DNA of 64,000 bases, from contig CH464492.1 in the NCBI GenBank assembly GCA_000002445.1, forward strand, positions 32,001-96,000, given 5' to 3'. Of this stretch, positions 1-57,236 are shown in pieces. The DNA comes from Trypanosoma brucei (taxonomy: Eukaryota). A model generated the notes under the pieces. The model did not search any database, was not told where the DNA came from, and saw nothing but the letters and a program-made list of their open reading frames with translations. A program made the translations under genes and the position numbers. Numbering within the stretch: position 1 is the stretch's first letter; every line of letters begins with the position of its first letter.

Positions 1-400
1 CTAGTAGGTGCTCGCGTGGCTCAATGCGGAGGTGAAGGTAAGACCGCATGGTGCGGGAATGTAGGGCTTTGACTAGATGTTTGCTGTGGTATACTTCCTC
101 AGCACTGCGCCGCAAACATCCGCCTCGTGACTCACACATCAGCATGAATTTCATGCTGCGCACAAGAGTGGTCGTCTTGAGTGGCAGGAGGTTTGCCTCC
201 AGCAGAGAGTCCTCTTTGCGCGTCCCATGGGGTATGCCAGCTATGATGCAACTGGCTTTGTGTTGTGCTGCTGAAAGGAGGTCCCGACTTCGTTCCGAAG
301 CGTCCCAGTACCATACCTCAATGCCATACATGGTGTGTGCCTGTACGAGTGCTAGATAAAGAGCTCTCAACACTTGTCGTCTTGGCCCCCATGTAGAAGC

Positions 401-2065
401 TTATATGGCTGCTATCTGCAGTAGTCTGAAGTTCATCTTGCGTCTCGTTTCGGCCGCATGTGTTTCCATCCCTTGCAGACACTGGAATGTTACTCCTAGA
501 AGCTTCGGTGTCCCGTCAGCTCCTATTCTTTCGCCGTCCAGTTGCAATGTAAGGGGGTGGCGCTCTGTACACCCGAAGAGTGTGCACTTTGTTTTCGCTA
601 TATTGACAGACATGAAGTACTCTTTTGACCACTGTAACATCACGTTTAGGCCGCATTGTAGTGTGTGGTTGATGACATCCCTCTCTGTGTGCCTCGCAAG
701 AGCGTCAGGTCGTCTGCAAAGAATCCGTGCTGCAGTAACGGCACTTCTGCAAGGCGTTGGCTCAACGAGTTCATGACAATAATGAACATGATTGGGCCAA
801 GGACAGTTTCCTTGTGGCACTCCTCGCTCAAATGTTCTGCTGCTGGAAAGCTTCTCCTTGAATCTCACTCTGCCAGTTCGGTTACTCAGAAATGATACGC
901 ACCACTTCACAATGTGGGGTGATACCTTCATTCTGTGCATTTCCCTCGCAATTTTGTCGTGGTCCACTGTATCAAATGCCTTCTCGTAGTCGACGAATAC
1001 AGCACCCGTACGATATTGGTGCGTGGGACGGCAGAGGGCAGCGCGGACGTGCAGGAGTTGTTCGAGTGTTGAGCATCCGGGGCAAAAGCCTGATTGCTGC
1101 GGCGTCAGCTGGGACTCAACAGTGTCTCTAAGTCTCGCGGCAATTATGCACTCCATGACTTTGCAGAGACAGCTCGTGAGCGTCACAGGCCTGTAAGAAT
1201 CGAGGTCCTCCCACTTTTTTCCGGCCTTCAGGATGGGGATGATAACACCAGTCTTCCATGCAGACGGCACGACTCCCGTTCGTAGGCTCTCATTGAATAG
1301 CCTCAGAACAACATTCAGTGCTGTTCTACCGAGATGTTGCAGTGCCTCGTTGTATAAGCAATCAGGTCCGGGTGCGGATCCACTCGGAAGCAGTTTGATC
1401 GATCTCCGTAGTTCAGCCATCGTGATGGGACTGAACTCACTCGCTATCGTCTTTATGGGTGCCGGTGGGTGTGAGTCGGGGTGCCTTCTTGCGCGGGACG
1501 AGTACAGTTTACTGAACCTCTCAGCTTGACGGTAGTCCGTGATGGCCGCGTTATCAACAAGCACAGCCGGTGTGGTTAGTGGTCGTGGTGCATATACCTT
1601 CTTGACAATGTGCCAACTGCAGCGGTCTGACACCGCAAGTCTGGAGCATAGCGTGCTCCATCTCTTCTTTGTGGTACGGTCCAGGATCTGCTTACGCGTG
1701 GCTACCAACTTTTCCCTTCTGTGGGAGGGTCCGCATCCAGCGATCTCTTCATCGAGTTTCGGGAGTGTATGTGTCCAATGTGGTGGCGTTGCTCTGCAGC
1801 CACGGGGGACGGAGACCTTCGTCGCAATGCGGATGGCGGAGCTCAATTTCTGTTCCAGGGTGTTGACGTTCTTCTCTCTACCAATTTTCCTGCAGAGCTC
1901 GTCAACCTTGAGACGGAAATTCCTCCAGTCAGCTTTTAGCCATGCGTACATGGGCTTTCGAAGCCGCGGGCAACTCAGTGCATCTGTGTCGTCTCCAACG
2001 ATAACGTCGAAAAATATGTGATGGTGATCGCTATCGGGAGAATACAGCGATGTCCACGTGTACAC
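401..2065 (-). pseudogene. ingi reverse-transcriptase region; one fragment of the frameshift-broken ingi polyprotein
   Basis: 554-aa ORF with RT motifs (…FVDYEKAFDTVDHD…, GVPQG, FADDLTLL-like). Adjacent ORFs are in other frames. Confidence 0.8.
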
Positions 2066-2077
2066 TGTGCAATTCCT

Positions 2078-2884
2078 TCACAGTGTCACATCAGGGCTGG
2101 ACTCCCCGTGGTGGCGTGCGTACCTGGTGCACTCACCAGTGTTGCAGACCAGAAACTGGTTGTCAATGCACCACTGTGTGAGGGTTTCACCCTTGGTATT
2201 TGGTGAGCTCGCGCGATCCCATGCCAACGCGTGTACGTTAGCGTCTGCACCGATGAGCTGGACACCGTCAGTCGACAGAAGCGTATCTATGTCATTTTCC
2301 GTGAAGTTGTGTTTTGGTGGGATGTATGCCGACGTGACGGTCAGCGCCTTTCCATGTGTAAGGTGAATTGTTCCATGCACTTGTTCAATGCGACCAACAA
2401 CGGCCATACCGGTCTCGACTGGTAGGTCTTCCCTCACTAGTATTGATACACCACCTCCTTTGCAGTTACGAGCTATTCCGTGATGTTGGTAGCCATCAAC
2501 GCTAAAGCAAGCGGCTTCTCAAGGCGTCATCCTTGTCTCGCTCAACAGACAAAAGGCGATCCGCTCATCAACAAGGGTTTTGTGGAGTGCTAATCTCTTT
2601 CCTTGAGATAGCCCGGCGCAGTTCCACTGCATCCCGCGCAACGACAGGCCGGGATTCTCTTCCACATCACCGGACAGCAGCATCTTAGTGCGGATGATAT
2701 TGCTGATGGCACGCTGGCACGTGCCTAGGGACCGACAAATGAAAAAGTGTGTGTCCCAGCAAGACGCTGCTGATCCCTGTGCTGTATGATGCCGTAGCCG
2801 GAGCAAAGCAGTGTTCCCCATGAAAGGAACGCTGCTGGATCTTGGCTTCCCCCGATGATACGGGGTACTGGACCCTGGCACCAC
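2078..2884 (-). pseudogene. ingi AP-endonuclease region with an N-terminal 2A-like peptide (DVEENPGL); frameshifted
   Basis: ORFs 2078-2437 and 2519-2884 match the APE segments of the other ingi copies. The motif is LLSGDVEENPGLSLRGMQWN at about 2610-2670. Confidence 0.75.
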
Positions 2885-2999
2885 GTTGAGGTGGCCGGCA
2901 TCGCCAGGGAAGAAAAGAAGTCAGTTGTTACAGATGCCAAGTTTAATTTCTTCGATGAGTTTCTCGTTTCAATTATAAAACATGCCACACCTTATCTAA

Positions 3000-12449: not shown

Positions 12450-12549
12450 NNNNNNNNNNNNNNNNNNNNNNNNNNNNNNNNNNNNNNNNNNNNNNNNNNN
12501 NNNNNNNNNNNNNNNNNNNNNNNNNNNNNNNNNNNNNNNNNNNNNNNNN
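12450..12549. other. Scaffold gap (100 N). It may hide the 70-bp repeats of the 10390-11852 cassette.
   Basis: Run of n characters. Confidence 1.
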
Positions 12550-20300: not shown

Positions 20301-21180
20301 GCATTTTGAGCTGCGCGCGGTATCAATTTTTTTTAAAGCTGGAGCGCGGCCTATAACACCGCACGCAATTCTTTTACGCCGCCTCGCTGCAGTATCGGTG
20401 CGCCAAACAATTTTTGTTTTCAAAAAGAAAATAAAGGAAGGGGAAAATATTTGTGAGATGGCAATTATAAAGAGCAGAAATTAAGGAGCGATTAGACAAT
20501 CTGCTGCTGGCACCCAACGGCCAAAGACGATAAACTGCCAGAGGTACGTTTTTAACCCCTAAGCCGTCGAGGATAAAATGTGCACATTGAGTGAGAGAAA
20601 TCAAGAAGATAGAACAAAAAGAAGCGCGAACAGATGGAGACAAAAAAGAGAACTATTATTTTTTTTGAAATTTTCTTCGTGACTTCGTGAGAGTTTCTCC
20701 CCACTGGCGAGTCCATCAGCCATAACCGTAGAGCCATGAGATGCTATCGGTCTGGCGACTGTGGCAGAGTCTCCCTTTTTTATTCAGCCTAACACACCCT
20801 CTATAATTTTTTGTTGTAGCTCCGCAGTTGGACGGAATACAGCAGATGGAGCAGAAAGCCCCCCACCCCTGACTCTCCAAAAGATGTCAATTAACAGTCC
20901 TTTTGTTTTGATTTTTGTTATTCGTTTATTATTCTCTCCTCTTTCTCTTTCTGTTTTTGTTGCTTGTTGACAGCATACCCTCTCTGTCTCTGAGGGTGTC
21001 TGGACTATTCCTGCGTCCGGTGCTTTTCCTGCTGGCTCCACACTCGGCAATAAGGGGGGAAGCTGCAGAATGGAGAGTGGGTTGTATGACTGTTACATTA
21101 GGTGAGGACTTCACCTGCGGCCGGCTCCGTTCAACCGCAATAAGAAACTGCGCCAGCCTTTTAGAGAAACATATATCCTG

Positions 21181-24100
21181 CACACACACACTCACCTTCT
21201 ACCGCAAACCTAACACGTAACTCCTTCAAACCGGGACAGCTCATCAAGTGCAGCGACGTTTCTTCGCAGTCGCCGCGTTGGCTGGTAACAGCGCACTCTA
21301 CCTTCATACCTTGCATCTTCTTTTGATGTAGGGTGAGGCCAGTTTTGCTAGCACACTGCCTTCCGCATGTCGGGCATACCAACATGGATGTGTTTGTATG
21401 CGGGGAATCAGTGGCAAGCAATTTTGTGCTTTTGCTGCATTTAAGCTCGACTCCCTCACCTTTGTGGAAAGCCTTACAGTGTCGGATGAGGGAGTCCCTG
21501 CAACTGAGCATTTTTTGGCACACACCACACTGCACCTCGCCCTTCCCCGGGACGTCAACGTTTCCCTCACGGGCACGCTTACGAGGGAATTGCACCACCA
21601 CCACGGTACCGTCCTCCGTCACTATGCTCTTATGTTTGAATTTCTTGTGTAGTGACAGGGAAGAACGTGTACCGAAGCTCGCCTCGCACAGGTCACATTG
21701 AAACGGCAGCTTCCGTGTATCCTGAGAGGCTGGCGCTGCTGGGGCTCTACCATCTCCTTGCACTGAGTCCTCGTTCTCTCTCCCCCTTTTCACGCGGCAA
21801 CTACCGCTGCCTATGCCATGTATTGTTCTAAGGTGGTGTAATAGTCGGCCTAGCACTGCGAATATGGAGGCACAGATGGTACAATGAAGCACCTGCAGTC
21901 TCATCGGGACTCGTGTGCTCGATGGTAGAGGAACGATCGCCACCGCTGGAGGGGGCTCCGGGGGGATGTCCACTGCAGGTGTTGCATCGCCGTATTTGAT
22001 CCTCCGGAGGGCATCAGCTCGCACAAAGCCATGTTTGTTTACCATATGCGTTACAGCACTCGAGCGGCATTGGTATGTGGCATCACATTCCGTATATTAG
22101 GTCGGTTCGGAGGTTCTCTGAAGAGTGCGTGTCGCAACAGTTGGGGATGTTTGTATTGTGGGTCCTATTGCTTCATGTTTCGGGTTACACCATCGGCACT
22201 GTGGAGGCACACTCGGGTTGATATTTCGCAACATCCATCCATAGTGTCTTGAAGAACCAACCCGAAAGCGTGCCAGTGCCGTTTCTTCTTCCCTCGTCAG
22301 TTCTTCATTATGTTTTGTTGGAAAGTGGTTGCCCGTGATACCAAACCTATGAGTGTTCTCATGGACTTCTTCCGACCTAAGCACTCGCTTCGCATAAGCA
22401 ATGATGTCGGGGACCCATGTGTCTCGCAACTGTGGTAAATCAGCGGCCTTTTTGGCCATTTCATCGCAAACCTCATTCCGTTTCACGCCACAATGGCCAA
22501 ACAAAAATTGCAGTCGGATACGTATCTTCCTTCTCTGAACTTGAAGCAGAAGCCTCCATAGTCGTCTCAGAATTGGGTCCGTTACGGCTAGGGGGCCTGT
22601 CTGCAATGCTGTTAACATTGACAGCGAGTCAGAGAAGATGGACAACCTGCTCGGTGTGCTTCTGTATGCCGGAACCCATTTCAGCAGCCGTTGCAGTCCT
22701 ATCTCTAATGCTACGCATTCCGCTCTGTAACTTCATGAGAGTTCCCCTGCTCCGGTCTTGGGTGCGCAAATCAGCGTGTTGTTTCTATAGAGCAGGGCAG
22801 CTGCTCCGAACTTCTCACCGAGGGACAAAGATCCATCAGTCCACAATTCGTAGTGCTCTCGTCGCGGTGGCTCCTTCCCCCTCCGTGCAAAATGCCGTTC
22901 AATCCACTTTTCGGAAGCCTCCCTTTTGACATTGTTAGAGTCATCAGCGCACACAGGCTTTATCTGCGTGTGAAATAGCGGTCGGCAGCTGTGGCGGAGC
23001 GTCGATGTCTCTAGTGGGTTTTCGCGTGGCTCAATGCGGAGGTGAAGGTAGGACCGCATGATGCGGGAATGTGTGGCTCTGACTGGGTGTTTGCTGTGAT
23101 ATGCTTCCTCAGCACTGCGCCGCAAACATCCGCCTCGTGACTCACACATCAGCATGAATTTCATGCTGCGCACAAGAGTGGTCGTCTTGAGTGGCAGGAG
23201 GTTTGCTTCCAGCAGACAGTCCTCTTTGCTCGTCCCATGTGGTATGCCAGCTATGATGCGACTGACCTTGTGTTGCGCTGCTGCAAGGAGGTCGCGACTT
23301 CGTTCCGAAGCGTCCCAGTACCATACCTCAATGCCATACATGGTGTGTGCCTGTACGAGTGCTAGATAAAAAGCTCTCAGTACTTGTCGTCTTGGCCCCC
23401 ATGTAGAAGCTGAGATGGCTGCTATCTGCAGTAGTAGGAAGTCCATCTTGCGTCTCGTTTCTGCCGCATGTGTTGCCATCCCTTGCAGACACTGGAATGT
23501 TACTCCTAGAAGCTTCGGTGTCCTGTCAGCTCCTATTCTTTCGCCGTCCATTGTAATGTAAGGGGGTGGCGCTCTATACACCCGAAGAGTGTGCACTTCG
23601 TTTTCGCTACGTTGACAGACATGAAGTACTCTTTTGACCACTGTAACACCACGTTTAGGCCGCATTACAGCGTGTGGTTGATGACATCCCTCTCTGTGTG
23701 CCTCGCAAGTAGCGTCAGGTCATCTGCAAAGAATCCGTGCTGCAGTAACGGCACTTCTGCAAGGCGCTGGCTCAACGAGTTCATGACAATAATGAACATG
23801 ATTGGGCCAAGGACAGTTCCTTGTGGCACTCCTCGCTCAAATGTTCTGCTGCTGGAAAGCTTCTCCTTGAATCTCACTCTGCCAGTTCGGTTACTCAGAA
23901 ATGATACACACCACTTCACAATGTGGGGTGATACCTTCATTCTGTGCATTTCCCTCGCAATTTTGTCGTGGTCTACTGTATCGAATGCCTTCTCTTAGTC
24001 GACGAATACAGCACCTGTACGATATTGGTGCGTGGGACGGCAGAGGGCAGCGCGGACGTGCAGGAGGTGTTCGAGCGTTGAGCATCCGGGGCGAAAGCCT

Positions 24101-25917
24101 GATTGCTGCGGCGTCAGCTGGGACTCAACAGTGTCTCTAAGTCTCGCGGCAATTATTCGCTCCATGACTTTGCAGAGACAGCTCGTGAGCGTCACTGGCC
24201 TGTAAGAATCGAGGTCCTCCGCCTTTTTTCCGGCCTTCAGGATGGGGATGATAACACCAGTCTTCCATGCAGACGGCACGACTCCCGTTCGTAGGCTCTC
24301 ATTGAATAGCCTCAGAACAACATTCAGCGCTGTTCTACCGAGATGTTGCAGTGCCTTGTTGTATAAGCAATCAGGTCCGGCTGCGGATCCACTCGGTAGC
24401 AGTTTGATCGATCTCCGTAGTTCAGCCATCGTGATGGGACTGAACTCACTCGCTATCGTCTTTATGTGTGCCGGTGGGTGTGAGTCGGGGTGCCTTCTTG
24501 CGCAAGACGAGTACAGTTTAATGAACCTCTCAGCTTGACGGTAGTCCGTGATGGCCGCGTTATCAACAAGCACAGCCGGTGTGGTTAGTGGTCGTGGCGC
24601 ATATACCTTCTTGACAATGTGCCAACTGCAGCGGTCTGACACCGCAAGTCTGGAGCATAGCGTGCTCCATCTCTTCTTTGTGGTACGGTCCAGAATCTGC
24701 TTACGCGTGGCTACCAACTTTTCTCTTATGTGGAAAGGTCCTCATCCAGCGATCTCTTCATCGAGTTTCGCGAGCTCAGGTGTCCAATGTGGTGGCGTTA
24801 CTCTGCAGCCACGGGGGACGGAGACATTCGTCGCAGTGCGGATGGCGGAGCTCAATTTCTGTTCCAGAGTGTTGACATTCTTCTCTCTACCAATTTTCCT
24901 GCAGAGCTCGTGAACCTTGAGACGGAAATTCCTCCAGTTAGCTTTTAGCCATGCGTACATGGGCTTTTGAAGCCGCGGGCAACTCAGTGCATCTGTGTCG
25001 TCTCCAACGATATCGTCGAAAAATATGTTATGGTGATCGCTATCGGGAGAATACAGCGATGTCCACGTGTACACTGTGCAATTCCTTGACAGTGTCACAT
25101 CAGGGGTGGACTCCTCGTGGTGGCGCGTGTACCTGGTGCACTCACCAGTGTTACATACCAGAAACTGGTTGTCAATGCACCACTGTGTGAGGGTTTCACC
25201 CTTGGTATTTGGTGGGCTCGCGCGATCCCATGCCAACGCGTGTGCGTTAGCGTCTGCACCGATGAGCTTGGCACCGTCAGTTGTCAGAAGCGTATCTAGG
25301 TCAGTTGCCGTGAAGGTGTGTTTTGGTGGGATGTATGCCGACGTGACAGTCAGCGCCGTTCCACGTGCAAGGTGAATTGTTGCATGCACTTGTTCAATGC
25401 GACCAACAACGGTCATACCAGTCTCGACTAGCAGGTTCTCCATCACTAGTATTGATACACCACCTCCTTTGCAGTTACGAGCTATTCTGTGATGTCGGTA
25501 GCCAGCAACGCTAAAGCAAACCACCTCTCCAGGCGTCATCCTTGTCTCGCTCAACAGACAAAAGACAATCCGCTCATCAACAAGGGTTTTGTGGAGTGCT
25601 AATCTCTTTTCTTGAGATAGCCCAGCGCAGTTCCACTGCATCCCGCGCAACGACAGGCCGGGATTCTCTTCCACATCACCGGACAGCAGCATGTTAGTGC
25701 GGATGATATTGCTGATGGCACGCTGGCACATGCCCAGGGACCGACAAATGAAAAACGGTGTCCCAGCAAGACGCTGCTGATCCCTGTGCTGTATAATGCC
25801 TTGGCCGGAGCACAGCATTGTTCCCCATGAAAGGAACGTTGGTGGCTCTTGGCTTCCCCCGATGATACGGGGTACTGGACCCTGGCACCACGTTGATGTT
25901 GCCGGCATCGCCAGGGG
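21181..25917 (-). mobile_element. ingi retrotransposon copy 2, about 4.74 kb. It runs from the 5' signature to a (CA)n-ended 3' boundary, and its ORF is broken into 5 or more pieces.
   Basis: 5' signature at 25849-25917 (minus strand). ORFs along the minus strand are APE (24742-25956, with the 2A-like DVEENPGL), RT (23995-24717; 23665-23949; 22733-23665), RNase H (22097-22645; FGHCGVKRNEVCDEMAKKA) and C2H2 zinc fingers (21161-22045). Colinear with copy 3. Confidence 0.9.
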
Positions 25918-26455
25918 ACGAATTTGAAACCACCCTGAGCGTGACACATTACTCAAATGGAAAATTTAAAGTAGACGGTAACGCTATGACAAAAACAGCC
26001 AAACTCTATCTCACAAGTCAGAAAGGTCAAAACAAGAAAAGACACAACCATGCACGACTTTCTCTGCCCTTTCAGTACAACACAACGGCAGATAGCGACC
26101 AAGTTATTAAATATGGCAAAAATATCTGGCACAACCGCGAAACAAAAGCGCGCATGGAACTGATTAACAGCATAAAATTCTTTCTAAAAGTAATCGCTGG
26201 ACGCAAAACTGGCAATAAACAGCCTCAATACGCCCTCTAACGGAATTCTTACAGCACCTAAAAAGGACAACTACAGGCGAAAAGGCGGCCCCAAATAGCT
26301 GAAAAGTGCAACTCGTTCAGGCCTTAAACCACAAAGAAAGCCATTCTAAATCCATAGGACCAGCGGCTTTTCAGATGAAGCCGAGACCACAAGACAACAC
26401 TGCCTTCACCGCCTGTAAGTTGTAATGCCTCAAGACAAGCCTGATATTTTCTTAA

Positions 26456-32559: not shown

Positions 32560-32792
32560 TCATGCAACACAAGGATGGTATTGACTCATATTGATTGCCA
32601 AACTAAGTAATGTTGAAATTATTACAATTGGGCTGGGATGTTTGTATAGTCATGTTAAAAGGCCTTTGTGGGGTTATGGAATTTTTAAAAAGTCAGAATG
32701 CAAGTAATGAGGATATTGTAATTCATTTGGATGGGTCTGATGTTATTGTTTGTGATTTAAAAAATATGAGAGTGCTGTGGAAAAAGCGATGA
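32560..32792 (+). pseudogene. Conserved co-transposed-region ORF family, copy 3 (a truncated fragment)
   Basis: …ACTCATGCAACACAAGGATGGTATTGACTCATATTGATTGCCAAACTAAG… flank, plus the ORF fragment …FLKSQNASNEDIVIHLDGSDVIVCD…. Confidence 0.55.
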
Positions 32793-37102: not shown

Positions 37103-38527
37103 ATGTCACGGCAATCAACGCAACGCGCTGTAGCAGCCGCACTGACGCTGCTTCTAGGCTCCGTAGAGGCGGCCCAAGATGCAAATGCAAAAGAACACAG
37201 CATACTGTGCAGGCTGCTGTCCGTGGCGGCAATAGAGCCAGAACCAAAAACATTGTCACCAGATGCAAGCGCGCTAGTAGCGACACTGGAGGAATTAAAC
37301 TTCTCAAACAGCGACGCCAACTGGACATCAAACTTCGATTTTGCCGCAATGACCGCCAAACCAGATGAATTGCCTCAAAAATTTAGGAAAGCACCGTATC
37401 CCCCAATGTGGACAACGATGTGGCCGAAATGGTACGCCGCAGGCAAACGGGCCGGCGAGGCTAAGGTCGGCACCGCTAGAAACAGCGATTACCCAGCCAT
37501 AAACGACGGGAGGCAAAAAAAACAGGCTCACAGTCAAATATCCGCGCTTCTTGACAGGGCGCTTTCATTGAAATCAAAGATAGACAACCTCAAAGGAGCG
37601 GACGGCACGTTCGGCATGACCACAGTAAGATCCCACCTTCAAGCAGCGGCCTACGGCAAGCCAGAGGCCAACAAGCCGACAACGCCAGACGGCATCCACG
37701 CACTGGCCAACTGGGACTCGGCATGCGGCAAATCAAACGTGGGCAAAAGCCTAGCAAGCGACATGATGTGCCTTTGCCACGGTACAGGTGTAACACCGCA
37801 AGACTGCGGGCTGACTGTAACGGCTGTCCAGTGGAACGCAGCCAAAACCATCGATGAGCCGTGGAATCCACTCAAAACATCTTGCCCATGCGGCAAACCA
37901 GGCGAACTGACAGACGCAGTAGTTGAAGCGGCAGTGACGGACTTTACAAGGGCCCTGAAGGAAACCTCCACCGGTGGCGAAAAAGTGCTACACTTCGGCG
38001 ATAACTCCGGCACAGGGTGCAATGGAGCAGACACCAAACTTTGCATAGATTACAGCGACTTCTTCAAAAAAGGAGGCGATAGCGGAGTAAGCAAGATAAA
38101 GTGGGCAGCCGAGCTTCGGCTGGCAGCAGGGCTAGCAAAGCAGACCGAAACCAGGCTGCAGCAAGCGCAGACACTGGCCCTGCTTGTAGAAGCACTCAGC
38201 GAGGAAGCAAAAAGCGTTTATACAGCTGCCGCCCAAAACAGGTTAGTGCCACCAGCTGAAGCGGAACACCAAGCGGATGCCAGCAGGCACCGTGATCAGA
38301 CGCAGGGCATTACCGGCGAAAAAAAGCAAGAAATTACATGCCAGGAGGAAAATAACAAGGATAAAAGCAACAGCAAGGCCGGATGCAAATATAATGACAA
38401 AGATAGAAAATGCGAGGAAGATCCTGCAAAAGCTACAGCAACAGCAGCACCAAACACAAACAGCACAGGAGACAATTCTTTTCTCATTAACAAGGCCCCT
38501 CTTTGGCTTGCATTTTTGCTTCTATAA
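37103..38527 (+). CDS. VSG: Intact VSG (474 aa) with a 17-aa-type GPI signal
   Basis: MSRQSTQRAVAAALTLLLGSVEAAQDANAKEH…MMCLCHGTGVT…NSFLINKAPLWLAFLLL*. An exact 16-mer lies downstream. Confidence 0.92.
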   Translation: MSRQSTQRAVAAALTLLLGSVEAAQDANAKEHSILCRLLSVAAIEPEPKTLSPDASALVATLEELNFSNSDANWTSNFDFAAMTAKPDELPQKFRKAPYPPMWTTMWPKWYAAGKRAGEAKVGTARNSDYPAINDGRQKKQAHSQISALLDRALSLKSKIDNLKGADGTFGMTTVRSHLQAAAYGKPEANKPTTPDGIHALANWDSACGKSNVGKSLASDMMCLCHGTGVTPQDCGLTVTAVQWNAAKTIDEPWNPLKTSCPCGKPGELTDAVVEAAVTDFTRALKETSTGGEKVLHFGDNSGTGCNGADTKLCIDYSDFFKKGGDSGVSKIKWAAELRLAAGLAKQTETRLQQAQTLALLVEALSEEAKSVYTAAAQNRLVPPAEAEHQADASRHRDQTQGITGEKKQEITCQEENNKDKSNSKAGCKYNDKDRKCEEDPAKATATAAPNTNSTGDNSFLINKAPLWLAFLLL

Positions 38528-47066: not shown

Positions 47067-48522
47067 ATGTTAATAACAGCCTGGAGGCAGGCAGCCAAGG
47101 AAGCACCCACGAAAATGAGGAACATCTTGCACCACCCTGGAGTTATAAAACTTCTAACGGTACTGGCAACGGCGCATGTGCAAGCCAAAACCAACGACAA
47201 AGGGGCGGCGGCTGTAGACGATTCGTGCAAGGAGTTAACACATGACAAAGCACTAAAATCACACATACAGAAGCAGACTGCTAATGCAAGAGCTGACTTT
47301 GAGAAGCTGCACAGACAGCACCTGGCGTGGCAAACGGCAGAAACAGCAGAACAAAACGCCGAAAGAAGATGCTTGTTCATGGCACTTGCAGCTAAGGCAG
47401 AGGAGATGGAAGAAAAAGCACCGCTACACAGCAAAGGCCAAGATTTGACAATAAACGAAGCTGTAAGTCTCCTAGATCATCAACTTTGTGTACTTCAGGC
47501 CCTAACGGTAGCGGCCAAAGCAATGCCAGCAGAAGACACAGGGAAGCACTCAAAAACAAGCGACATGGCCGTAAACATCAAACTTAAATTAGCAACAGGA
47601 GTAACTTCGGTCTGCATCGTTGTAAATAATGTGAAAACGCTGTGGTCACCATTAGTGGAACACGAGTGGACGAAACTTTTTAAATTGAAAATAACGACGC
47701 CAGAATAATTTCTAAAAAAGTTCAACAAGTCGGCTGTAACGCTAAGCAGCCTAGGAAAATGCACACAACACGACAGAAACAACTTCAACTTCTCCAACTC
47801 TATTCAAAGGTGCGTTCAAACAAGCACAATGGCAAAAATAAGTTTTAAAGACTTACGAAAAACGACATCTTACACAGCCACCGGCGTGGACCTCAGGACA
47901 GGCGACAGGTACACAGGTGTTTGAATACAAGAAATAGCCAAAACCGTTGAAAACACGGCTTACGAGGCGAAGCTTGGATATTTCGTCTGTAGGGCACTAG
48001 ACACAATGAAAAATAAACCCGATAAGCTTGAAGACCTAAGCGGCAGCAACCTAAAAAGCGACGGCATAGTCAAGCTCACACTTAGAAACTGCCTTCCACA
48101 ATTCCAACATATAGCCGACACGACAGATAGCGAAAAGAGCAAACAAATTGAAGATTACATTGAACAGACGTTCCATAAAAACAGAAATGACTTCAAAACC
48201 AACTTCATGGATATCCTCAACAAGGATAGTCACACGAGCCGCAGTGAGAAAAGTTCGGCACAAAAATAAATAACAGGAATAAGTAACGCCCAGGAGCGGA
48301 CAGCAATCATAAGTCATGCCGAATGGATAAGGAACGCCAAAGTACTAGAAGCAGAAAAGAAGGTCGCAACCGCAGCAGCAGCTGATTCCAAAAAAACAGA
48401 AGAAAAGTGCCAAGATAAAGTGACCACAACAACAGGGACAGATAGTACAACAAACACCACAGTAAGCAATTCTTTTGTTATCAATAAAGCTCCTCTTTGG
48501 CTTGCATTTTTTCTTCTATGAT
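47067..48522 (+). pseudogene. VSG: VSG or VSG-related pseudogene with a 17-aa-type GPI signal; multiple frame breaks
   Basis: ORF 47067-47708 has a signal-like start and an alpha-helical N-region. The end reads …TTTTGTDSTTNTTVSNSFVINKAPLWLAFFLL* by hand translation (stop at 48520-48522). Confidence 0.6.
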
Positions 48523-48619
48523 TAAATTTTTGAAAAACGTTTTGCTCAATTTTGTGAAATTTTTGAAATTTTTCTAAAATATGATATTCTTTTCACAGTT
48601 TTTCTCATATCTCTACAAA

Positions 48620-51600
48620 TACTCGGTGGCGCCTGCCGCCTCATCGTGGTTCCAGGGTTTATTGCTCCATCCAGAAGGAAGCCAATCGCCCGCATTATAC
48701 CTGGTCCGACAGGATTTGGGAGGGCAACAGGTTTTTGGCGACCAGAGAAAGAGCAAGCAGCAGCATCAGCACTCTGGGCTGAAGAAATATATTAGACTGT
48801 TCTTCTGCACGTCAGAGCATACCCCGATTGGGATACGTAGGCTTATACTACTTAAGGGAGATGTAGAACAGAATCCCGGCCCCGTTATTCGTGGAGCCAA
48901 ATGGAATGCTGTGGCGTTACCTCATGTAAAACGACTTGACTTGGAGAGGCGGCTTCAAGAGGACCACGTTGTATTCTGTTTATTGTGGGAGATTTACTCG
49001 GCTTCAGCGGGATCACCGCGCTTAAAATAAGAGAATACCAGCATGTAGCGTTGGAGAGAATTATGCACGGGGTTGTGGTGTAAATTCTAGTGCGAGATGA
49101 AATGGAGTGGGGAAAGGGGACATATGAAAAAAGGAGTGCTAGAAAGAGTGACAGCAACGCTGAGATTTTTGGCTGATGTGAATTTGGCAGTCACTTCAGC
49201 TTATTTTCTTAGAAAATCAGTAGTTTTTAACACAGCGTTGGAACAATTAGCGATAGAAAGATGGCTTCTATTATAAGGGGCTGATGCCAACTCGCATCAT
49301 GTGTTGTGGGACCCACTATGGCCTCAAAACCTTCCCCAACTTTATACATGTGGAATAAAGCGCGTTGGAGTGACTTCCGAGCGGTCGGTAATAAGTTCAT
49401 TTTCAACAAGACTTAAAAGAAAAATAGAAAGTGCGGATGCGCTAAATGAAGCCATCGCGAGATGCAAAAGACAAGCAGCCAAGAAAAACATACCAAAAGG
49501 TAAGGGTGTAGCACCGTCGTTCTCGATAATAGAGTTGATGAAACTCTCCAAGAAAATACAAAAGTATCGTAATGAACGTAGGAGAGATGCGCTGATTAGA
49601 TAGTGAAGAAAAGTACTTGCGGACATGGCTCTTCAAAGATGGAAGGAAAATGTACTCAAGTTGGAGGCACAAAACCGCTCAGCTGGAATATCGTAAAGTC
49701 TATTTACGTCCAGCGTAGTTTTGCATCGCCAGTAATGGTAGTGGATGGACATTCATTGACTAAGCGCCAGCAGACACACAAACTAGAAAGGATGTACATG
49801 GAGCGTTTAACAAAGGCACTAAGAGCACCAGATATGCAAATTCCGACCGCCAGGAAAAGGACTTTCACACCAACTACAGAAGCCGAACTGGAAACTGCAG
49901 TAAAAGAGCTCTCCTCTGTAACTGCTTCGGAATACTACGAAATTCATTGCGAAGAATTCAGACAGCTTGGAACGATTGGTCAAAGAGCTGTTGAGACTAT
50001 TTAACTGCAGTGTGAAAAACAGTTAACTTCCAAAAAAATGGAAACCTTTTATGATTATTCCGCTGCTAAACCATAATAAACATGAGGCAAGCATGGCGTC
50101 ATTCAGACCAGTGACCCTCAAAAAATCCGTAACACATGGAGTAACAGTAGAAAAAAGCAGCGAAAGTATTCATAGATCATGATAGAGCTTTTGACTCTGT
50201 GGATAACGGATGTATAACCAAGGCATTACACGAAATTGGATTGGAGTCGCACCTGTTTGCCTGGATAGTGCAGCTTTTATAAAGTAAGGACTGCACGAGT
50301 AAGAGTCGACAACACGAAGTCAGAAAAAATACAGCTGACATGCGGCATCTTCCAAGGCTCAGTGCTAGTTTTACTTCTGCTTATTATAGAAGTAACATAC
50401 ACTCGCTAAGTTCAATAATGAAAATGATTCCAGAATTCGCACACGGATTCTACGCTGATGACCTTACAATAATATGTACACCCAATAACATCATCGAGAT
50501 ACAGAAACAGTACAGATAGGACTTAATTGCACAGAGAAGTTGTCAGCGTTGCACTTCATGGATATGTCAGTGATAAAGGGGAGTATACGCTATTTGTATC
50601 AAGGGACACAAACCGGATAAGGCTAAAAGTAGGGGGAAGCTTTAAAGGAAAATAGAACGCTAAAGCTACTGGGATTGACAATACAGCCACATAAAGGACG
50701 AAGTAAGCAAACATCCACACTTCCTATAAACAGCAGAAAACATGTGACTAATGAAGCTTAGGCCAGTTGACATCGCCCCTGTAGAGAAATAATAAGAGCA
50801 TTCTGTTTGGCTCTTGTTCAGGCAAAGTTTAGCTATAGTATAGTGTCATCGCGGTTTAATGCATCGCCATCGGATAGAGAAAAGCTGTAAAAACAGAATG
50901 CTAATGCTGCTAACATTGTGGCAAGCATACCGAAATCGGCAAACCGAACATATTCTCTTTTAGAGGCTTGTTTAAAGCCACTGAGCAACGAAGTGGCGTA
51001 CCGTAGAGTAACGGGGTACTACCTGAGATTGAAAGTCGGGGGCGCAAAGTATGCTGACGCGGAAGATAATATGTTCCAACAAGAACATCCAGTTCACATA
51101 AAAATGGTCAGGGTAAGTCATATATGCGGCGAAACAGATAAACCAGGAAAACCACAAGATGAGACCCTATTGCAAATTGCGAAGATAGTATATTTTAACA
51201 TCAAACCATCAGGAGTCTAAAAGCTAACGCAAAAGACAAAGTTAAGAAAGTACAAACAGTGAAACTGGTACAGTGTTTTAAAAACTATGACTATCAAGTG
51301 TGGTCAGATGGATCGGTAGTGTTAGATGCTTCCTCAGGGGCAAGCGCAATGATGTACTCAATCAATGGAAAGAGTGGGAAAGTACATCTGGGTTCTGTAT
51401 CGATGACCTGCAGCTATAGGGAGGATTGTGTAGCAACGGAGGCAGGTCTCAAATGGCTCGTAAAGATAATTAATGTCAACAAAATAACAATACAAAAGTA
51501 GCTATATTCACAGACTTATTGTCGCTCATAATGATACTTAAAACTGAATATGCGGTAGTAAAAGAAGCGACACTGAAACAAATACGGACACAAATTATTC

Positions 51601-52270
51601 ATATCGTGAAGCTACGAGTAGTGGGTAATTTTCATTTTGTGTTCTCACACTGCGGGGTCCCAAGAAATGAAGCAGTTGACAAAGAAGCAGAGAAAGACGA
51701 TAAAATGCTAAGGACATATCCAGCATGGATCACGGACATAGTCACATGTATAGAAAGGCAAATACATCGAGAAAGGGACAATGAATTCGAAGAGGTCCAA
51801 AAGTCACAAACAAATCGCAGTGCTCTACTCAACCATATTAAACCTACGCAGAAAATATCCAAAGTGGACAGGATGGGAAAATCATTACTAGCGCAATTTA
51901 GAATAGGTACATCGAAACAATTCGGATGGCTACATCATGTATTCACAAAAGAAAACAGTGCAAAATGAGTGTAGATAGCGTCGTCGTGACTATGTGGAAC
52001 TGGAGACAGCTGTGAATGGGAAAGCGAGAAGTACACAGAATGATAATACGGAAACACAGTCATCACAGGTAACGGTAAGACAAAATGAGCCCATAATATC
52101 CCCGTTGTGCAACGTTGTGGGTGCACGTCTTCAAGCCAGAGTAGTGCACCTTATGAAGATACACAGTTGGGAAAGAGAAAGAGCACTGACAATGATGAAG
52201 ATAGCAAAAATTGGCGGTGCAGGAATATAAAGGTAAATACGGTTGCCATGTTTGTAAAAGGGATTGTGAG
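48620..52270 (+). mobile_element. DIRE-like degenerate ingi-related retroelement in plus orientation. It has a 5' signature homolog, a canonical 2A, and APE, RT, RNase H and zinc-finger remnants.
   Basis: 5' …GGTGGCGCCTGCCGCCTCATCGTGGTTCCAGGGTTTATTGCTCCATCCAGAAGGAAGCCAA. ORF 48581-49030 reads …LLKGDVEQNPGPVIRGAKWNAVALPHVKRLDLERRL…VVFCLLWE. YADDLTIIC is at about 50450. RNase H remnants are WSDGS… (51259-51501) and …FVFSHCGVPRNEAVDKEA (51519-51968). A zinc-finger-like PLCNVVGARLQARVVHLMKIHS is at 51994-52230. Confidence 0.75.
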
Positions 52271-52300
52271 GTAAGAGGTTTACTTGTGGAGCACATGGTC

Positions 52301-55300
52301 ACAGACACAGACGCACACACACACACCCTCTACCGCAAACCTAACACGTAACTCCTTCAAACCGGGCCAGCTCATCAAGTGCGGCGACGTTTCTTCGCAG
52401 ACGCCGCGTTGGCTGGTAACAGCGCGCTCTACCTTCATACCGTGCATCTTCTTTTGATATAGGGTGAGGCCAGTTTTGCTAGCACACTGCCTTCCGCATG
52501 TCGGGTACACCAACATGGATGTGTTTGTATGCGGGGAATCAGTGGCACACGATTTCGTGCTTTTGCTGCATTTAAGCTCGATTCCCTCACCTTTGTGGAA
52601 AGCCTTACAGTGTCGGATGAGGGAGTCCCTGCAACTGAGCACTTTTTGGCACACACCACACTGCACCTCGCCTTTCCCCGGGACGTCAACGTTTCCCTCA
52701 CGGGCACGCTTACGAGGGATTTGCACCACCACCACGGTACCGTCCTCCGTCACTATGCTCTTATGTTTGAATTTCTTGTGTAGTGACAGGGAAGAGCGTG
52801 TACCAATGCTCGCCTCGCACAGGTCACATTGAAACGGCAGCTTCCGTGTATCCTGAGGGGCTGGCGCTGCTGGGGCTCTACCATCTCCTTGCAACGAGTC
52901 CTCGTTTTCTCGCCCCCTTTTCACGCGGCAACTACCGCTACCTATGCCATGTATTGTTCTAAGGTGGTGTAATAGTCGGCCTGGCACTGCGAATTTGGAG
53001 GCACAGATGGTACAATGAAGCACCTGCGGTCTCATCGGGACTCGTGTGCTCGATGGTAGAGGAACGATCGCTACCACTGGAGGGGGCTCCTGGGGGATGT
53101 CCACTGCGGGTGTTGCATCGCCGTATTTGATCCTCCGGAGGGCATCAGCTCGCACAAAGCCATGTTTGTTTACCATATGCGTTACAGCACTCGAGCGGCA
53201 TTGGTATGTGGCATCACATTCCGTATATTAGGTCGGTTCGGAGGTTCTCTGAAGAGTGCGTGTCGCAACAGTTGGGGATGTTTGTATTGTGGGTCCTATT
53301 GCTTCATGTTTCGGGTTACACCATCGGCACTGTGGAGGCACACTCGGGTTGATATTTCGCAACATCCATCCATAGTGTCTTGAAGAACCAACCCGAAAGC
53401 GTGCCAGTGCCGTTTCTTCTTTCCTCGTCAGTTCTTCATTATGTTTTGTTGGAAAGTGGTTGCCCGTGATACCAAACCTATGAGTGTTCTCATGGACTTC
53501 TTCCGACCTAAGCACTCGCTTCGCATAAGAAATGATGTCGGGGATCCATGTGTCTCGCAACTGTGGTAAATCAGCGGCCTTTTTGGCCATTCCATCGCAA
53601 ACCTCATTCCGTTTCACGCCACAATGGCCAAACACAAATTGCAGTCGAATACGCACCTTCCTTCTCTGAACTTGAAGCAGAAGCCTCCATAGTCGTCTCA
53701 GAATTGGGTCCGTTACGGCTAGGAGGCCTGTCTGCAGTGCTGTCAACATTGACAGCGAGTCAGAGAAGATGGAAAACCTGCTCGGTGTGCTTCTGTATGC
53801 CGGAAGCCATTTCAAGCAGCCGTTGCAGTCCTATCTCTAATGCTACGCATTCCACTCTGTAACTGCATGAGAGTTCCCTTGCTCCGGTCTTGGGTGCACA
53901 AATCAGCGTGTTGTTTCTATAGAGCAGGGCAGCTGCTCCGGACTTCTCACCGAGGGACACGGATCCATCAGTCCACAATTCGTAGTGCTCTCGTCGCGGT
54001 GGCTCCTTCCCCCTCCGTGCAAAATGTCGTGCAATCCACTTTTCGGAAGCCTCCCTTTTGACATCGTCAGGGTCATCAGCGCACACAGCCTTTATCTGCG
54101 TGTGAAATAGCGGTCGGCAGCTGTGGCGGAGCGTCGATGTCTCCAGTGGGTGCTCGCTCGGCTCCATGCGGAGGTGGGGGTAGGACCGTATGATGCGGGA
54201 ATGTAGGGCTCTGACTGGGTGTTTGCTGTGGTATACTTCCTCAGCACTGCGACGCAAATATCCATCTCGTGACTCACACATCAGCATGAATTTCATGATG
54301 CGCACAAGAGTGGTCGTCTTGAGTGGCAGGAGGTTTGCTTCCAGCAGAGAGTCCTCTTTGCGCGTCCCATGCGGTATGCCAGCTATGATTAGACTAGCCT
54401 TGTGTTGTGCTGCTGCAAGGAGGTCGCGACTTCGGTTCTAAGCGTCCCAGTACCATACCTCAATGCCATACATGGTGTGTGCCTGTACGAGTGCTAGATA
54501 AAAAGCTCTCAGTACTTGTCGTCTTGGCCCCCATGTAGAAGCTGAGATGGCTGCTATCTGCAGTAGTAGGAAGTCCATCTTGCGTCTCGTTTCGGCCGCA
54601 TGTGTTGCCATCCCTTGCAGACACTGGAATGTTACTCCAAGAAGCTTCAGTGTCCTGTCAGCTCCTATTCTTTCGCCGTCCAGTTGTAATGTAAGGGGGT
54701 GGCGCCCTATACACCCGAAGAGTGTGCACTTTGTTTTCGCTATATTGACAGACATGAAGTACTCTTGTGACCATTGTAACACCACGTTTAGACCGCATTG
54801 TAGCGTGTGGTTGATGACATCCCTCTCTGTGTGCCTCGCAAGTAGCGTTAGGTCGTCTGCAAAGAATCCGTGCTGCAGTAACGGCACTTCGACAAGGCGT
54901 TGGCTCAACGAGTTCATGACAATAATGAACATGATTGTGCCAAGGACAGTTCCTTGTGGCACTCCTCGCTCAAATGTTCTGCTGCTGGAAAGCTTCTCCT
55001 TGAATCTCACTCTGCCAGTTCAGTTACTCAGAAATGATACGAACCACTTCACAATGTGGGGTGATACCTTCATTCTGTGCATTTCCCTCGCAATTTTGTC
55101 GTGGTCCACTGTATCAAATGCCTTCTCGTAGTCGACGAATACAGCACCCGTACGATATTGGTGCGTGGGACGGCAGAGGGCAGCGCGGACGTGCAGGAGT
55201 TGTTCGAGCGTTGAGCATCCGGGGCGAAAGCCTGATTGCTGCGGCGTCAGCTGGGACTCAACAGTGTCTCTAAGTCTCGCGGCAATTATGCGCTCCATGA

Positions 55301-57049
55301 CTTTGCAGAGACAGCTCGTGAGCGTCACAGGCCTGTAAGAATCGAGGTCCTCCCACTTTTTTCCGGCCTTCAGGATGGGGATGATAACACCAGTCTTCCA
55401 TGCAGGCGGCACGACTCCCGTTCGTAGGCTCTCATTGAATAGCCTCAGAACAAAACTCAGCGCTGTTCTACCGAGATGTTGCAGTGCCTCGTTGTATAAG
55501 CAATCAGGTCCGGGTGCGGATCCACTCGGAAGCAGTTTGATCGATCTCCGTAGTTCAGCCATCGTGATGGGACTGAACTCACTCGCTATCGTCTTTATTG
55601 GTGCCGGTGGGTGTGAGTCGGGGTGCCTTCTTGCGCGGGACGAGTACAGTTTACTGAACCTCTCAGCTTGACGGTAGTCCGTGATGGCCGCGTTATCAAC
55701 AAGTACCGCCGGTGTGGTTAGTGGTCGTGGCGCATATACCTTCTTGACAATGTGCCAACTGCAGCGGTCTGACACCGCAAGTCTGGAGCATAGCGTGCTC
55801 CATCTCTTCTTTGTGGTACGGTCCAGAATCTGCTTACGCGTGGCTACCAACTTTTCCCTTCGGTGGGAGGGTCCGCATCCAGCGATCTCTTCATCGAGTT
55901 TCGCGAGCTCAGGTGTCCAATGTGGTGGCGTTGCTCTGCAGCCATAGAGCACGGAGACCTTCGTCGCAATGCGGATGGCGGAGCTCAATTTCTGTTCCAG
56001 GGTGTTGACGTTCTTCTCTCTACCAATTTTCCTGCAGAGCTCGTCAACCTTGAGACGGAAATTCCTCCAGTCAGCTTTTAGCCATGCGTACATGGGCTTT
56101 CGAAGCCGCGGGCAACTCAGTGCATCTGTGCCGTCTCCAACGATAACGTCGAAAAATATGTGATGGTGATCGCTATCGGGAGAATACAGCGATGTCCACG
56201 TGTACACTGTGCAATTCCTTGACAGTGTCACATCAGGGGTGGACTCCCCGTGGTGGCGTGCGTACCTGGTGCACTCACCAGTGTTGCAGACCAGAAACTG
56301 GTTGTCAATGCACCACTGTGTGAGGGTTTCACCCTTGGTATTTGGTGGGCTCGCGCGATCCCATGCCAACGCGTGTGCGTTAGCGTCTGCACCGATGAGC
56401 TGGGCACCGTCAGTCGTCAGAAGCGTATCTAGGTCAGTTGCCGTGAAGGTGTGTTTTGGTGGGATGTATGCCGACGTGACAGTCAGCGCCGTTCCACGTG
56501 CAAGGTGAATTGTTGCATGCACTTGTTCAATGCGACCAACAACGGTCATACCAGTCTCGACTAGCAGGTTCTCCATCACTAGTATTGATACACCACCTCC
56601 TTTGCAGTTACGAGCTATTCTGTGATGTCGGTAGCCAGCAACGCTAAAGCAAACCACCTCTCCAGGCGTCATCCTTGTCTCGCTCAACAGACAAAAGACA
56701 ATCCGCTCATCAACAAGGGTTTTGTGAAGTGCTAATCTCTTTCCTTGAGATAGCCAGGCGCAGTTCCACTGCATCCCGCGAAACAACTAGACGGGATTCT
56801 CTTCCACATCACCGGACAGCAGCATGTTAGTGCGTATGATACTGCTGATGACACGCTGGCACGTGGCCAGGGACCGACAAATGAAAAACGGTGTCCCAGC
56901 AAGACGCTGCTGATCCCTGTGCTGTATGATGCCGTAGCCGGAGCACAGCAGTGTTCCCCATGAAAGGAAAGCTGCTGGCTCTTCGCTTCCCCCGATGATA
57001 CGGGGTACTGGACCCTGGCAACACGTTGAGGTGGCCGGCATCTCCGGGG
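52301..57049 (-). mobile_element. ingi retrotransposon copy 3, about 4.75 kb. Its longest ORF is 588 aa (RT plus APE), and the 2A-like motif is interrupted (DVEENPV*).
   Basis: 5' signature at 56985-57049. ORFs 56787-57041 (N-terminus), 55020-56786, 54438-55010, 53760-54305, 53228-53815 (RNase H) and 52280-53176 (C2H2 fingers). The 3' boundary is a (CA)n run, as in copy 2. Confidence 0.9.
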
Positions 57050-57236
57050 ACTACCATAGTACGTTACCCTTATAGGCGACTATTAAACATGTTCTGCTAA
57101 AATTTTATTTTTTATAGCTTTTAAAAATGTTACAATCCCTCAATGGCTTTACACAATTTTAAAATATAAGAATTATTAATAATTTTTTGATAAACGTTAT
57201 AAATTTAAGAAAAAATTCTTTGAAAGTTAAAATTCT

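What the first reader, a model, noticed from the sequence alone, without database searches (positions are those of the whole stretch)
48581..49030. A DIRE retains a canonical 2A ribosome-skipping motif (DVEQNPGP), whereas all three ingi copies have altered motifs (DVEENPGL, DVEENPGL and DVEENPV*)
In the ingi/L1Tc lineage a 2A peptide precedes the AP endonuclease. Its established consensus is D(V/I)ExNPG|P, with the final proline required. Here the supposedly degenerate element (ORF 48581-49030, …LLKGDVEQNPGPVIRGAKWN…) keeps the consensus. The near-full-length ingi copies carry Pro→Leu (2610-2670; 25650-25700) or a stop after NPV (56784-56810). Either ingi in this genome has lost 2A function or uses a non-canonical variant, or these ingi copies are all dead.
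Basis: partly seen in the sequence, partly recalled or inferred. Interest (0 to 1): 0.5.

Follow-up and report, generated by a model that had tools for sequence, protein, structure and literature searches.

The report
Decayed 2A motifs in dead retrotransposons
In a Trypanosoma brucei surface-antigen gene array, three dead copies of the ingi jumping gene have each lost the key proline of their ribosome-skipping signal, while one much older dead relative has kept its signal by luck; this is ordinary pseudogene decay, and intact ingi genes still carry the normal signal.

Summary
DVEQNPGP lies at 48860-48883 (+) in a degenerate ingi-related element. DVEENPGL, DVEENPGL and DVEENPV* lie at the homologous position of three ingi copies on the minus strand.

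It has no functional meaning. All three ingi copies are pseudogenes, each with 3-5 in-frame stops and 1-2 frameshifts relative to an intact 1656-aa T. b. equiperdum ingi ORF, which reads DVEENPGP. In 10 other ingi copies (9 T. b. equiperdum, 1 T. b. gambiense) the final Pro codon is CCG in 10/10. The whole motif is canonical in 6/10, as expected from neutral decay at about 2.7% divergence.

So ingi has not lost or changed its 2A.

The DIRE is thoroughly dead: at least 12 stops, at least 6 frame changes, and its ATG lies outside the element in a VSG 3'UTR. Two sibling copies elsewhere have lost the motif (DVEQHPGF, DVEHNPCH). Survival in one of three copies fits chance.

One small residue remains. 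All three window copies are hit in the same codon, and B and C share a diverged 5' haplotype spanning it. A minor NPGL-bearing sub-lineage, or gene conversion, is therefore possible.

The parts
48623..51932 (+). Degenerate ingi-related element (TbDIRE), related to Tvingi/Tcoingi. The 5' end is at a Pr77-like hallmark. Protein homology to ingi is traceable to 51932. Its 3' part is missing or unrecognisable up to the junction with ingi C at about 52317.
   Evidence: tblastn of the intact ingi ORF P0031 gives 24-45% identity over residues 2-1225, with at least 6 frame changes and at least 12 in-frame stops. The N-terminal 135 aa are 53% identical to a T. congolense protein, P0007. A 236-aa query is 45-46% identical to T. 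vivax P0044/P0045. Pfam detects only a sub-threshold RVT_1 match of 19.9 bits.
48623..48700 (+). Pr77-like 5' hallmark of the DIRE (CTCGGTGGCGCCTGCCGCCTCATCGTGGTTCCAGGG...). The ATG that ingi carries inside this hallmark is absent here.
   Evidence: Alignment by eye to the ingi 5' ends (CCCTGGCGATGCCGGCCACCTCAACGTGGTGCCAGGG). The hallmark is conserved in two sibling DIRE copies. No Rfam family matched.
48860..48883 (+). DIRE 2A motif DVEQNPGP (GAT GTA GAA CAG AAT CCC GGC CCC). It is canonical in sequence but embedded in a dead ORF.
48581..49030 (+). Fortuitous 149-aa ORF. It starts in the VSG 3'UTR, runs into the DIRE, and ends at the first of many stops.
1..2909 (-). ingi copy A. Only the 5' 2.9 kb is visible because the window edge cuts it. 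It is a pseudogene, with a 2-nt insertion upstream of 2A and 3 stops. Its 2A reads DVEENPGL at 2645-2668.
20655..25919 (-). ingi copy B. It is full length (5.26 kb) and 95.6% identical to an intact T. b. equiperdum ingi. It is a pseudogene with 2 frameshifts and 5 stops. Its 2A reads DVEENPGL at 25654-25677.
52317..57051 (-). ingi copy C. It is 3'-truncated (4.73 kb) and lies tail-to-tail with the DIRE. It is a pseudogene with at least 1 frameshift and 4 stops. Its 2A reads DVEENPV* at 56787-56810.
48400..48520 (+). C-terminal end of a VSG (pseudo)gene (...SNSFVINKAPLWLAFFLL*), about 100 nt upstream of the DIRE.
   Evidence: The upstream flank is shared with the sibling DIRE in L004.

Best explanation
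The window is a T. brucei-group subtelomeric VSG array littered with dead retroelements. The ancestors of both Tbingi and the Tvingi/Tcoingi-like TbDIRE encoded a canonical 2A ribosome-skipping peptide about 75-83 codons into their single ORF, just upstream of the AP-endonuclease domain.

After each copy stopped being translated, its 24-nt motif drifted neutrally. The three ingi copies here happen to have been hit in the final Pro codon: CCG to CTG in A and B, and a four-substitution cluster giving GTC TAG in C. The much older DIRE copy happens not to have been hit.

None of the four motifs is functional now, because none sits in an intact ORF. Functional ingi retains DVEENPG|P.

Shown here: the motifs, the pseudogene status, the state of other copies, and the neutral expectation. 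Inferred: that NPGL and NPV* would not skip (from published FMDV 2A mutagenesis), and that the motifs are untranslated in vivo.
For: - Pseudogene status: compared with the intact 1656-aa ORF P0031, copy A has 1 frameshift and 3 stops in the visible 965 codons. Copy B has 2 frameshifts and 5 stops. Copy C has at least 1 frameshift and 4 stops.
- Canonical state elsewhere: P0031, P0034, P0003, P0029 and P0032 (T. b. equiperdum) and L009 (T. b. gambiense) read DVEENPGP. The other four copies read DVEKNTGP, DVEENPSP, DAEENPGP and DVE*NPGP, and all still have CCG at the Pro codon. That makes 10/10 with Pro and 6/10 fully canonical.
- Neutral expectation for ingi: copies are about 2.5-3% from consensus in a star-like pattern, and the intact-ORF copy is closest to consensus at 0.8%. 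Simulated neutral decay at d=0.027 leaves the motif intact with P=0.65, against 0.6 observed.
- DIRE: it has at least 12 stops and at least 6 frame changes, Pfam domains below threshold and no start codon inside the element.
- DIRE siblings: the copies in L004 and L005 read DVEQHPGF and DVEHNPCH. The three-copy consensus (GAT GTG GAA CAG AAT CCC GGC Cn.) reads DVEQNPG with the final codon only partly resolved. The branch length of about 0.17 per copy gives P(intact) of about 0.08-0.1.
- Relatives in T. vivax and T. congolense carry DVERNPGP and DIERNPGP, so the DIRE motif is an ancestral relic.
- Literature: ingi and L1Tc 2As are active and sit upstream of the APE domain (PMC3708506, PMC5814959). 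Mutating the final Pro codon almost abolishes 2A activity (PMC3326317).
Against: - All three window copies are altered at the same nucleotide, the second base of the Pro codon, whereas 0 of 10 outside copies are. My own arithmetic for a Fisher exact test gives about 0.0035, so three fully independent hits are unlikely. At least B and C are not independent, because they share 13 exclusive variants in element positions 224-504, which span the codon.
- Only 13 ingi copies were examined, out of the several hundred I recall for a T. brucei genome. The 10 outside copies come from other subspecies and were found through annotated ORFs, so there may be ascertainment bias.
- No copy from elsewhere in the window's own genome could be examined.
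Confidence: 0.85

Rival explanations
1. A minor ingi sub-lineage already carrying NPGL (CTG) gave rise to copies B and C, and perhaps A. Elements with a dead 2A would then have been copied by the machinery of intact ingi acting in trans, as RIME is, or spread by gene conversion or duplication inside the VSG array.
For: B and C share 13 exclusive variants clustered at element positions 224-504. This tract contains the 2A codon. Within it they are 5.7-7.1% from the intact copy but only 3.2% from each other. A and B share the identical CTG. Three of three window copies are hit in one codon, against none of ten elsewhere.
Against: A does not share the B/C haplotype: there are only 4 scattered A+B exclusive sites, and A is 2.1% from the intact copy in the tract. 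Copy C reads TAG, not CTG, so two extra changes are needed either way. The site is a CpG, and CpG transitions run 1.6 times the non-CpG C/G rate in these copies, so recurrence is plausible. L007 shares several polymorphisms with A, B and C, but it keeps CCG. No CTG copy was seen outside the window.
Confidence: 0.12
2. Ingi in this genome uses a non-canonical NPG|L skipping site or has dispensed with 2A function altogether.
Against: All three copies are pseudogenes. Every intact or long ingi ORF recovered has NPGP, and 10/10 other copies keep the Pro codon. Replacing the final Pro almost abolishes 2A activity (PMC3326317).
Confidence: 0.02
3. The DIRE 2A is kept by selection, for example as part of a domesticated small ORF downstream of a VSG gene.
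For: The motif and its LLxGD context are perfect although the element is otherwise decayed.
Against: Two sibling copies have lost it. The ORF starts outside the element and stops 49 codons after the motif, inside what was the endonuclease domain. Survival probability by chance is about 0.1 per copy, and eight copies of the ingi6-related TbDIRE group, to which this element probably belongs, are reported per genome (PMC3820030).
Confidence: 0.01

Closest known systems
Tbingi 2A-like sequence (T. brucei ingi; ...IIRTKMLLSGDVEENPG|P), reported active by Heras et al. 2006 as cited in PMC3708506 and PMC5814959
   Same: Same element family (95-96% nt identity to T. b. equiperdum ingi). Same position about 240 nt from the 5' end, just upstream of the APE domain. 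Same upstream context, IIRTK/NMLLSG.
   Different: The three window copies carry Leu, Leu, or Val-stop in place of Gly-Pro/Pro. They also lie in ORFs broken by stops and frameshifts, so they are relics and not working sites.
TbDIRE (Degenerate Ingi/L1Tc-Related Element). It is probably the ingi6-related group (TbDIRE2), which Bringaud et al. 2011 (PMC3820030) describe as eight extinct copies related to Tvingi/Tcoingi.
   Same: Long ingi-clade element with a Pr77-like 5' hallmark and heavily degenerated coding capacity. Its best protein matches are T. vivax and T. congolense elements. A T-rich upstream motif partly fits TTTTxxxxxA^A.
   Different: Subclade assignment was not tested by RT phylogeny. 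The 3' end is missing. This copy happens to keep an intact DVEQNPGP, while its siblings do not.
Tvingi / Tcoingi-type 2A (DVERNPGP in T. vivax P0044/P0045; DIERNPGP in T. congolense P0007)
   Same: Homologous N-terminal region (45-53% identity) with the 2A at the same place and the same LL(L/I)xGD(V/I)ExNPGP(x)(I/M)RGA(Q/K)WN context.
   Different: Those are annotated ORFs in species where the family may still be active (PMC3820030). The T. brucei copy is extinct.
Viral 2A peptides (FMDV F2A, P2A and others), consensus D(V/I)ExNPG|P
   Same: Same C-terminal consensus and the same presumed ribosome-skipping chemistry (PMC3326317).
   Different: Retrotransposon rather than viral context, and non-functional here.

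Membership tests
2A / 2A-like ribosome-skipping peptide | C-terminal motif D(V/I)ExNPG followed by Pro | tested here: met
   Met for the DIRE: DVEQNPGP at 48860-48883. The ingi copies are covered in the next row.
2A / 2A-like ribosome-skipping peptide | C-terminal motif D(V/I)ExNPG followed by Pro (ingi copies A, B and C) | tested here: not met
   A and B read DVEENPGL (CTG). C reads DVEENPV* (GTC TAG).
2A / 2A-like ribosome-skipping peptide | Lies in frame within a translated ORF, with functional protein on the downstream side | tested here: not met
   The DIRE ORF starts outside the element and stops 49 codons after the motif, with at least 12 stops downstream. Copies A, B and C have 3-5 stops and 1-2 frameshifts each.
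2A / 2A-like ribosome-skipping peptide | Measured separation of upstream and downstream products (skipping activity) | not testable with these tools
   This needs a GFP-2A-GUS type reporter. The literature says only that substitutions of the final Pro almost abolish FMDV 2A activity (PMC3326317).
Tbingi (ingi4 subclade) non-LTR retrotransposon | About 5.2-kb element with a Pr77 hallmark at the 5' end and an A-rich 3' end, highly similar to reference ingi | tested here: met
   Copy B aligns over 5265 nt at 95.6% to the element holding the intact ORF P0031. Copy C aligns over 4733 nt and copy A over 2910 nt. 5' ends read CCCTGGCGATGCCGGCC....
Tbingi (ingi4 subclade) non-LTR retrotransposon | Single long ORF encoding APE, RT, RNase H and zinc-finger domains (autonomous copy) | tested here: not met
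   The reference P0031 has all these domains. The window copies are interrupted, so they are ingi pseudogenes.
Tbingi (ingi4 subclade) non-LTR retrotransposon | 12-bp target-site duplication and the upstream ingi4 insertion signature | tested here: inconclusive
   No convincing 12-bp duplication was recognised for copy B. The 3' ends of A and C are unavailable or truncated.
[quoted passage not shown] | Long element with protein-level homology to ingi/L1Tc across APE, RT and RNase H, ruined by many stops and frameshifts | tested here: met
   24-45% identity to P0031 over residues 2-1225 in 7 segments that change reading frame at least 6 times, with at least 12 stops.
[quoted passage not shown] | Pr77 / 76-79-bp signature at the 5' extremity | tested here: met
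   48623-48700 aligns by eye to the ingi 5' end and is conserved in two sibling copies. This was judged by eye and from the MAFFT alignment; no covariance model was used, and there was no Rfam hit.
ingi6 subclade (TbDIRE2 / Tvingi / Tcoingi) | Groups with Tvingi/Tcoingi in RT phylogeny and is preceded by TTTTxxxxxA^A plus a 12-bp TSD | tested here: inconclusive
   The best N-terminal matches are T. vivax and T. congolense proteins. TTTT at 48601-48604 and A at 48610 fit the signature, but the next base is T, not A. No RT tree was made and the 3' TSD is unavailable.

The most novel reading that the evidence does not exclude
A sub-lineage of Tbingi whose 2A was already inactivated (NPGL) was nevertheless amplified, leaving copies B, C and perhaps A. 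This would imply that ingi RNAs with a dead 2A, and so with no proper release of the endonuclease-RT polyprotein, can be mobilised in trans by intact elements. The alternative is that short-tract gene conversion spreads inactivating mutations among ingi copies within one VSG array.
Probability: 0.12. Interest if true: 0.3.

Novelty: already known. Interest (0 to 1): 0.08.

Why it matters
It matters little. The result confirms that 2A belongs to the ancestral design of the whole ingi clade, since a relic is visible even in an extinct T. brucei DIRE lineage related to Tvingi/Tcoingi. It also confirms that functional Tbingi keeps NPG|P.

The practical lesson is for annotation. A perfect 2A motif in a trypanosome genome is not evidence of a working recoding site. 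Mutated motifs in a few ingi copies likewise say nothing about the family, because the copies seen here decay neutrally.

The only open thread is whether a small NPGL sub-lineage exists, which would bear on trans-mobilisation of defective ingi.

Tried and rejected
- An exact-protein look-up of a window VSG (37103-38527), meant to identify the source assembly, found nothing on record. The strain remains unknown.
- Heras et al. 2006 (PMC11136212), the primary paper on the trypanosome 2A, is not held. Searches for the literal peptide strings returned nothing relevant.
- An Rfam scan for an HDV-like or Pr77 ribozyme family gave no hits at gathering threshold.
- The TSD search for ingi B was inconclusive.
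- Pfam on the DIRE translations gave only a sub-threshold RVT_1 match.
- A true genome-wide tabulation was impossible because no eukaryotic genome collection is searchable by DNA. I substituted 10 copies reached through annotated proteins and their 10-kb flanks, which used all 12 contig look-ups and all 3 protein searches.
- Rejected: 'A and B are sister copies or segmental duplicates'. Homology stops at the element ends, and only 4 exclusive sites are shared.
- Rejected: 'the window copies form a strain-specific clade'. The only site where A, B and C all differ from a unanimous outside state is the 2A codon itself.

Full report
**Observation.** A six-frame scan of the window finds four D[VI]ExNP.. 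sites and no others:
- DVEQNPGP at 48860-48883 on the plus strand
- DVEENPGL at 2645-2668 on the minus strand
- DVEENPGL at 25654-25677 on the minus strand
- DVEENPV* at 56787-56810 on the minus strand

About 7e-4 D[VI]ExNPG sites are expected per window from residue frequencies. 200 mononucleotide shuffles gave one hit, against three observed. More to the point, each site starts 238-240 nt from the 5' end of a retroelement, so the four are positional homologues.

**Context.** The window is a VSG array of the T. brucei group. Seven of ten large ORFs hit Pfam VSG_B and/or the VSG C-terminal domain. Self-comparison shows three copies of one roughly 5-kb repeat, all on the minus strand. Against the DNA of an intact T. 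b. equiperdum ingi (L003) they align at 95.6-96.6%:

| Copy | Window coordinates | Aligned length | State |
|---|---|---|---|
| A | 1-2909 | 2.9 kb | cut by the window edge |
| B | 20655-25919 | 5.26 kb | full length |
| C | 52317-57051 | 4.73 kb | lacks about 0.5 kb at the 3' end |

**The ingi copies are dead.** The reference is the intact 1656-aa ORF P0031, which Pfam shows to contain endonuclease, RVT_1, RNase H and zinc-finger domains. Relative to it:
- Copy A has a frameshift and three stops in the 965 codons visible. The frameshift is a 2-nt insertion upstream of the 2A.
- Copy B has two frameshifts and five stops.
- Copy C has at least one frameshift and four stops.

At DNA level the Pro codon CCG reads CTG in A and B. 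In C, GGC CCG TCG TTG has become GTC TAG TTG TTT, four substitutions within 11 nt.

**What ingi normally has.** Protein searches and cluster listings returned annotated ingi ORFs from T. b. equiperdum OVI and T. b. gambiense DAL972. I fetched the DNA of ten independent copies.
- The final Pro codon is CCG in all ten.
- The whole motif is DVEENPGP in six. These include the intact 1656-aa ORF, a 1481-aa ORF and the gambiense copy.
- The other four read DVEKNTGP, DVEENPSP, DAEENPGP and DVE*NPGP.

It also agrees with the literature:
- Ingi and L1Tc carry active 2A-like sequences just upstream of the APE domain (PMC3708506, PMC5814959).
- Replacing the final Pro codon almost completely abrogates 2A activity (PMC3326317).

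**Neutral expectation.** Over 2.9 kb the eleven aligned copies form a star. Most are 1.2-3% from consensus (the 5'-truncated L008 is 5%), and the intact-ORF copy is closest at 0.8%. Simulating neutral substitution on the 24-nt motif gives P(intact) = 0.65 at d = 0.027, close to the 6/10 seen outside the window. By my arithmetic, three of three mutated copies in the window has a naive probability of about 0.04. That is unremarkable for a finding selected after the fact.

**A residue.** All three window copies are altered at the same nucleotide, the second base of the Pro codon. None of the ten outside copies is. This is the only site where A, B and C all depart from a unanimous outside state. 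By my arithmetic a Fisher exact test gives about 0.0035.

Part of this is non-independence. B and C share 13 exclusive variants clustered at element positions 224-504, a tract that contains the codon. Within the tract they are 3.2% apart but 5.7-7.1% from the intact copy. A lacks this haplotype and shares only four scattered exclusive sites with B.

The mutated base is a CpG cytosine, and CpG transitions run 1.6 times the non-CpG C/G rate in these copies. The pattern therefore reflects either two events at a somewhat mutable site, or a minor NPGL sub-lineage or gene conversion. I cannot decide between these with 13 copies.

**The DIRE.** From about 48623 the plus strand carries a Pr77-like hallmark, followed by sequence 24-45% identical to ingi protein over residues 2-1225. 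The match is broken by at least six frame changes and at least twelve stops. Pfam sees only a sub-threshold RVT_1 match.
- Its N-terminus is 53% identical to a T. congolense protein.
- A 236-aa query is 45-46% identical to T. vivax proteins.
- Those proteins read DIERNPGP and DVERNPGP at the same place.

The element is therefore an extinct T. brucei relative of Tvingi/Tcoingi. This fits the ingi6-related TbDIRE group described in PMC3820030, but I did not test subclade membership by RT phylogeny.

The ATG at 48581 lies outside the element. A VSG (pseudo)gene ends at 48520 (...SNSFVINKAPLWLAFFLL*), and the ATG sits in its 3'UTR. The ATG that ingi has inside its Pr77 hallmark is absent from the DIRE.

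**Is the DIRE motif preserved?** Two sibling copies turned up in the fetched T. b. equiperdum loci. They read DVEQHPGF (L004) and DVEHNPCH (L005). The three-way consensus (GAT GTG GAA CAG AAT CCC GGC Cn.) reads DVEQNPG with the final codon only partly resolved. The copies differ pairwise by about 28%, or about 0.17 substitutions per site per branch. This gives P(intact) of roughly 0.08-0.1 per copy. One survivor among three copies is what chance predicts; eight copies of the ingi6-related group are reported per genome (PMC3820030). There is no sign of selection.

**Verdict.** The contrast is real but has no functional meaning. Both element families inherited a canonical 2A. All four copies in the window are pseudogenes. 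The motif drifted in three of them and by luck not in the fourth. Functional Tbingi retains DVEENPG|P. Nothing here is new in kind. The one loose end is whether an NPGL-bearing ingi sub-lineage exists, which a genome-wide tabulation would settle.

Noticed in passing
window 48420-48625; L004 15909-16090 (minus); L005 8778-8960 (minus): The DIRE begins about 100 nt after the stop of a VSG (pseudo)gene. The sibling DIRE in L004 shares the same 85 nt or so of VSG-3'UTR-like flank right up to the element's 5' end. L004 and L005 also share VSG C-terminal coding sequence further upstream. The VSG 3' end and the DIRE seem to have been duplicated together as one unit, rather than the DIRE inserting three times.
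   Followed up: partly
window 51932-52317: The DIRE (+) and ingi C (-) lie tail-to-tail, and both lack their 3' ends. Ingi C stops at reference position 4821 of about 5345, next to a (CA)n-like run at 52300-52326. This suggests a deletion or recombination junction.
   Followed up: partly
window 25416-25696 and 56548-56828 (element positions 224-504 of ingi B and C): B and C share 13 exclusive variants in a 280-nt tract but are not especially close elsewhere. The pattern is mosaic, suggesting gene conversion between ingi copies or a recombinant source lineage.
   Followed up: partly
window 56780-56793: Ingi C carries four substitutions within 11 nt at the 2A (GGC CCG TCG TTG to GTC TAG TTG TTT). 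This is a mutation cluster, not scattered point changes.
   Followed up: no
ingi copies A, B, C and L001-L008 (2.9-kb alignment): Transitions at CpG sites occur at 0.024 per site per copy, against 0.015 at non-CpG C/G. This is a modest CpG effect in an organism I recall as having little cytosine methylation.
   Followed up: no
protein P0037 (XP_018644078.1, Schistosoma mansoni 'LOW QUALITY PROTEIN', 13-kb contig): This protein clusters at 90% identity or more with T. brucei ingi endonuclease proteins. Its N-terminus, MWKRIPARRC, is the ingi 2A DNA read in the +1 frame. It is probably T. brucei contamination in a S. mansoni assembly.
   Followed up: no
window 8593-9534 vs 17013-17953 (inverted, 77%); 9171-9466 and 17067-17350 vs 32469-32782: Further diverged repeats lie between VSG genes. 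They may be VSG flanks or other old elements and were not characterised.
   Followed up: no
window 11323-11422 and 12450-12549: Two runs of exactly 100 N mark assembly gaps inside the array.
   Followed up: no
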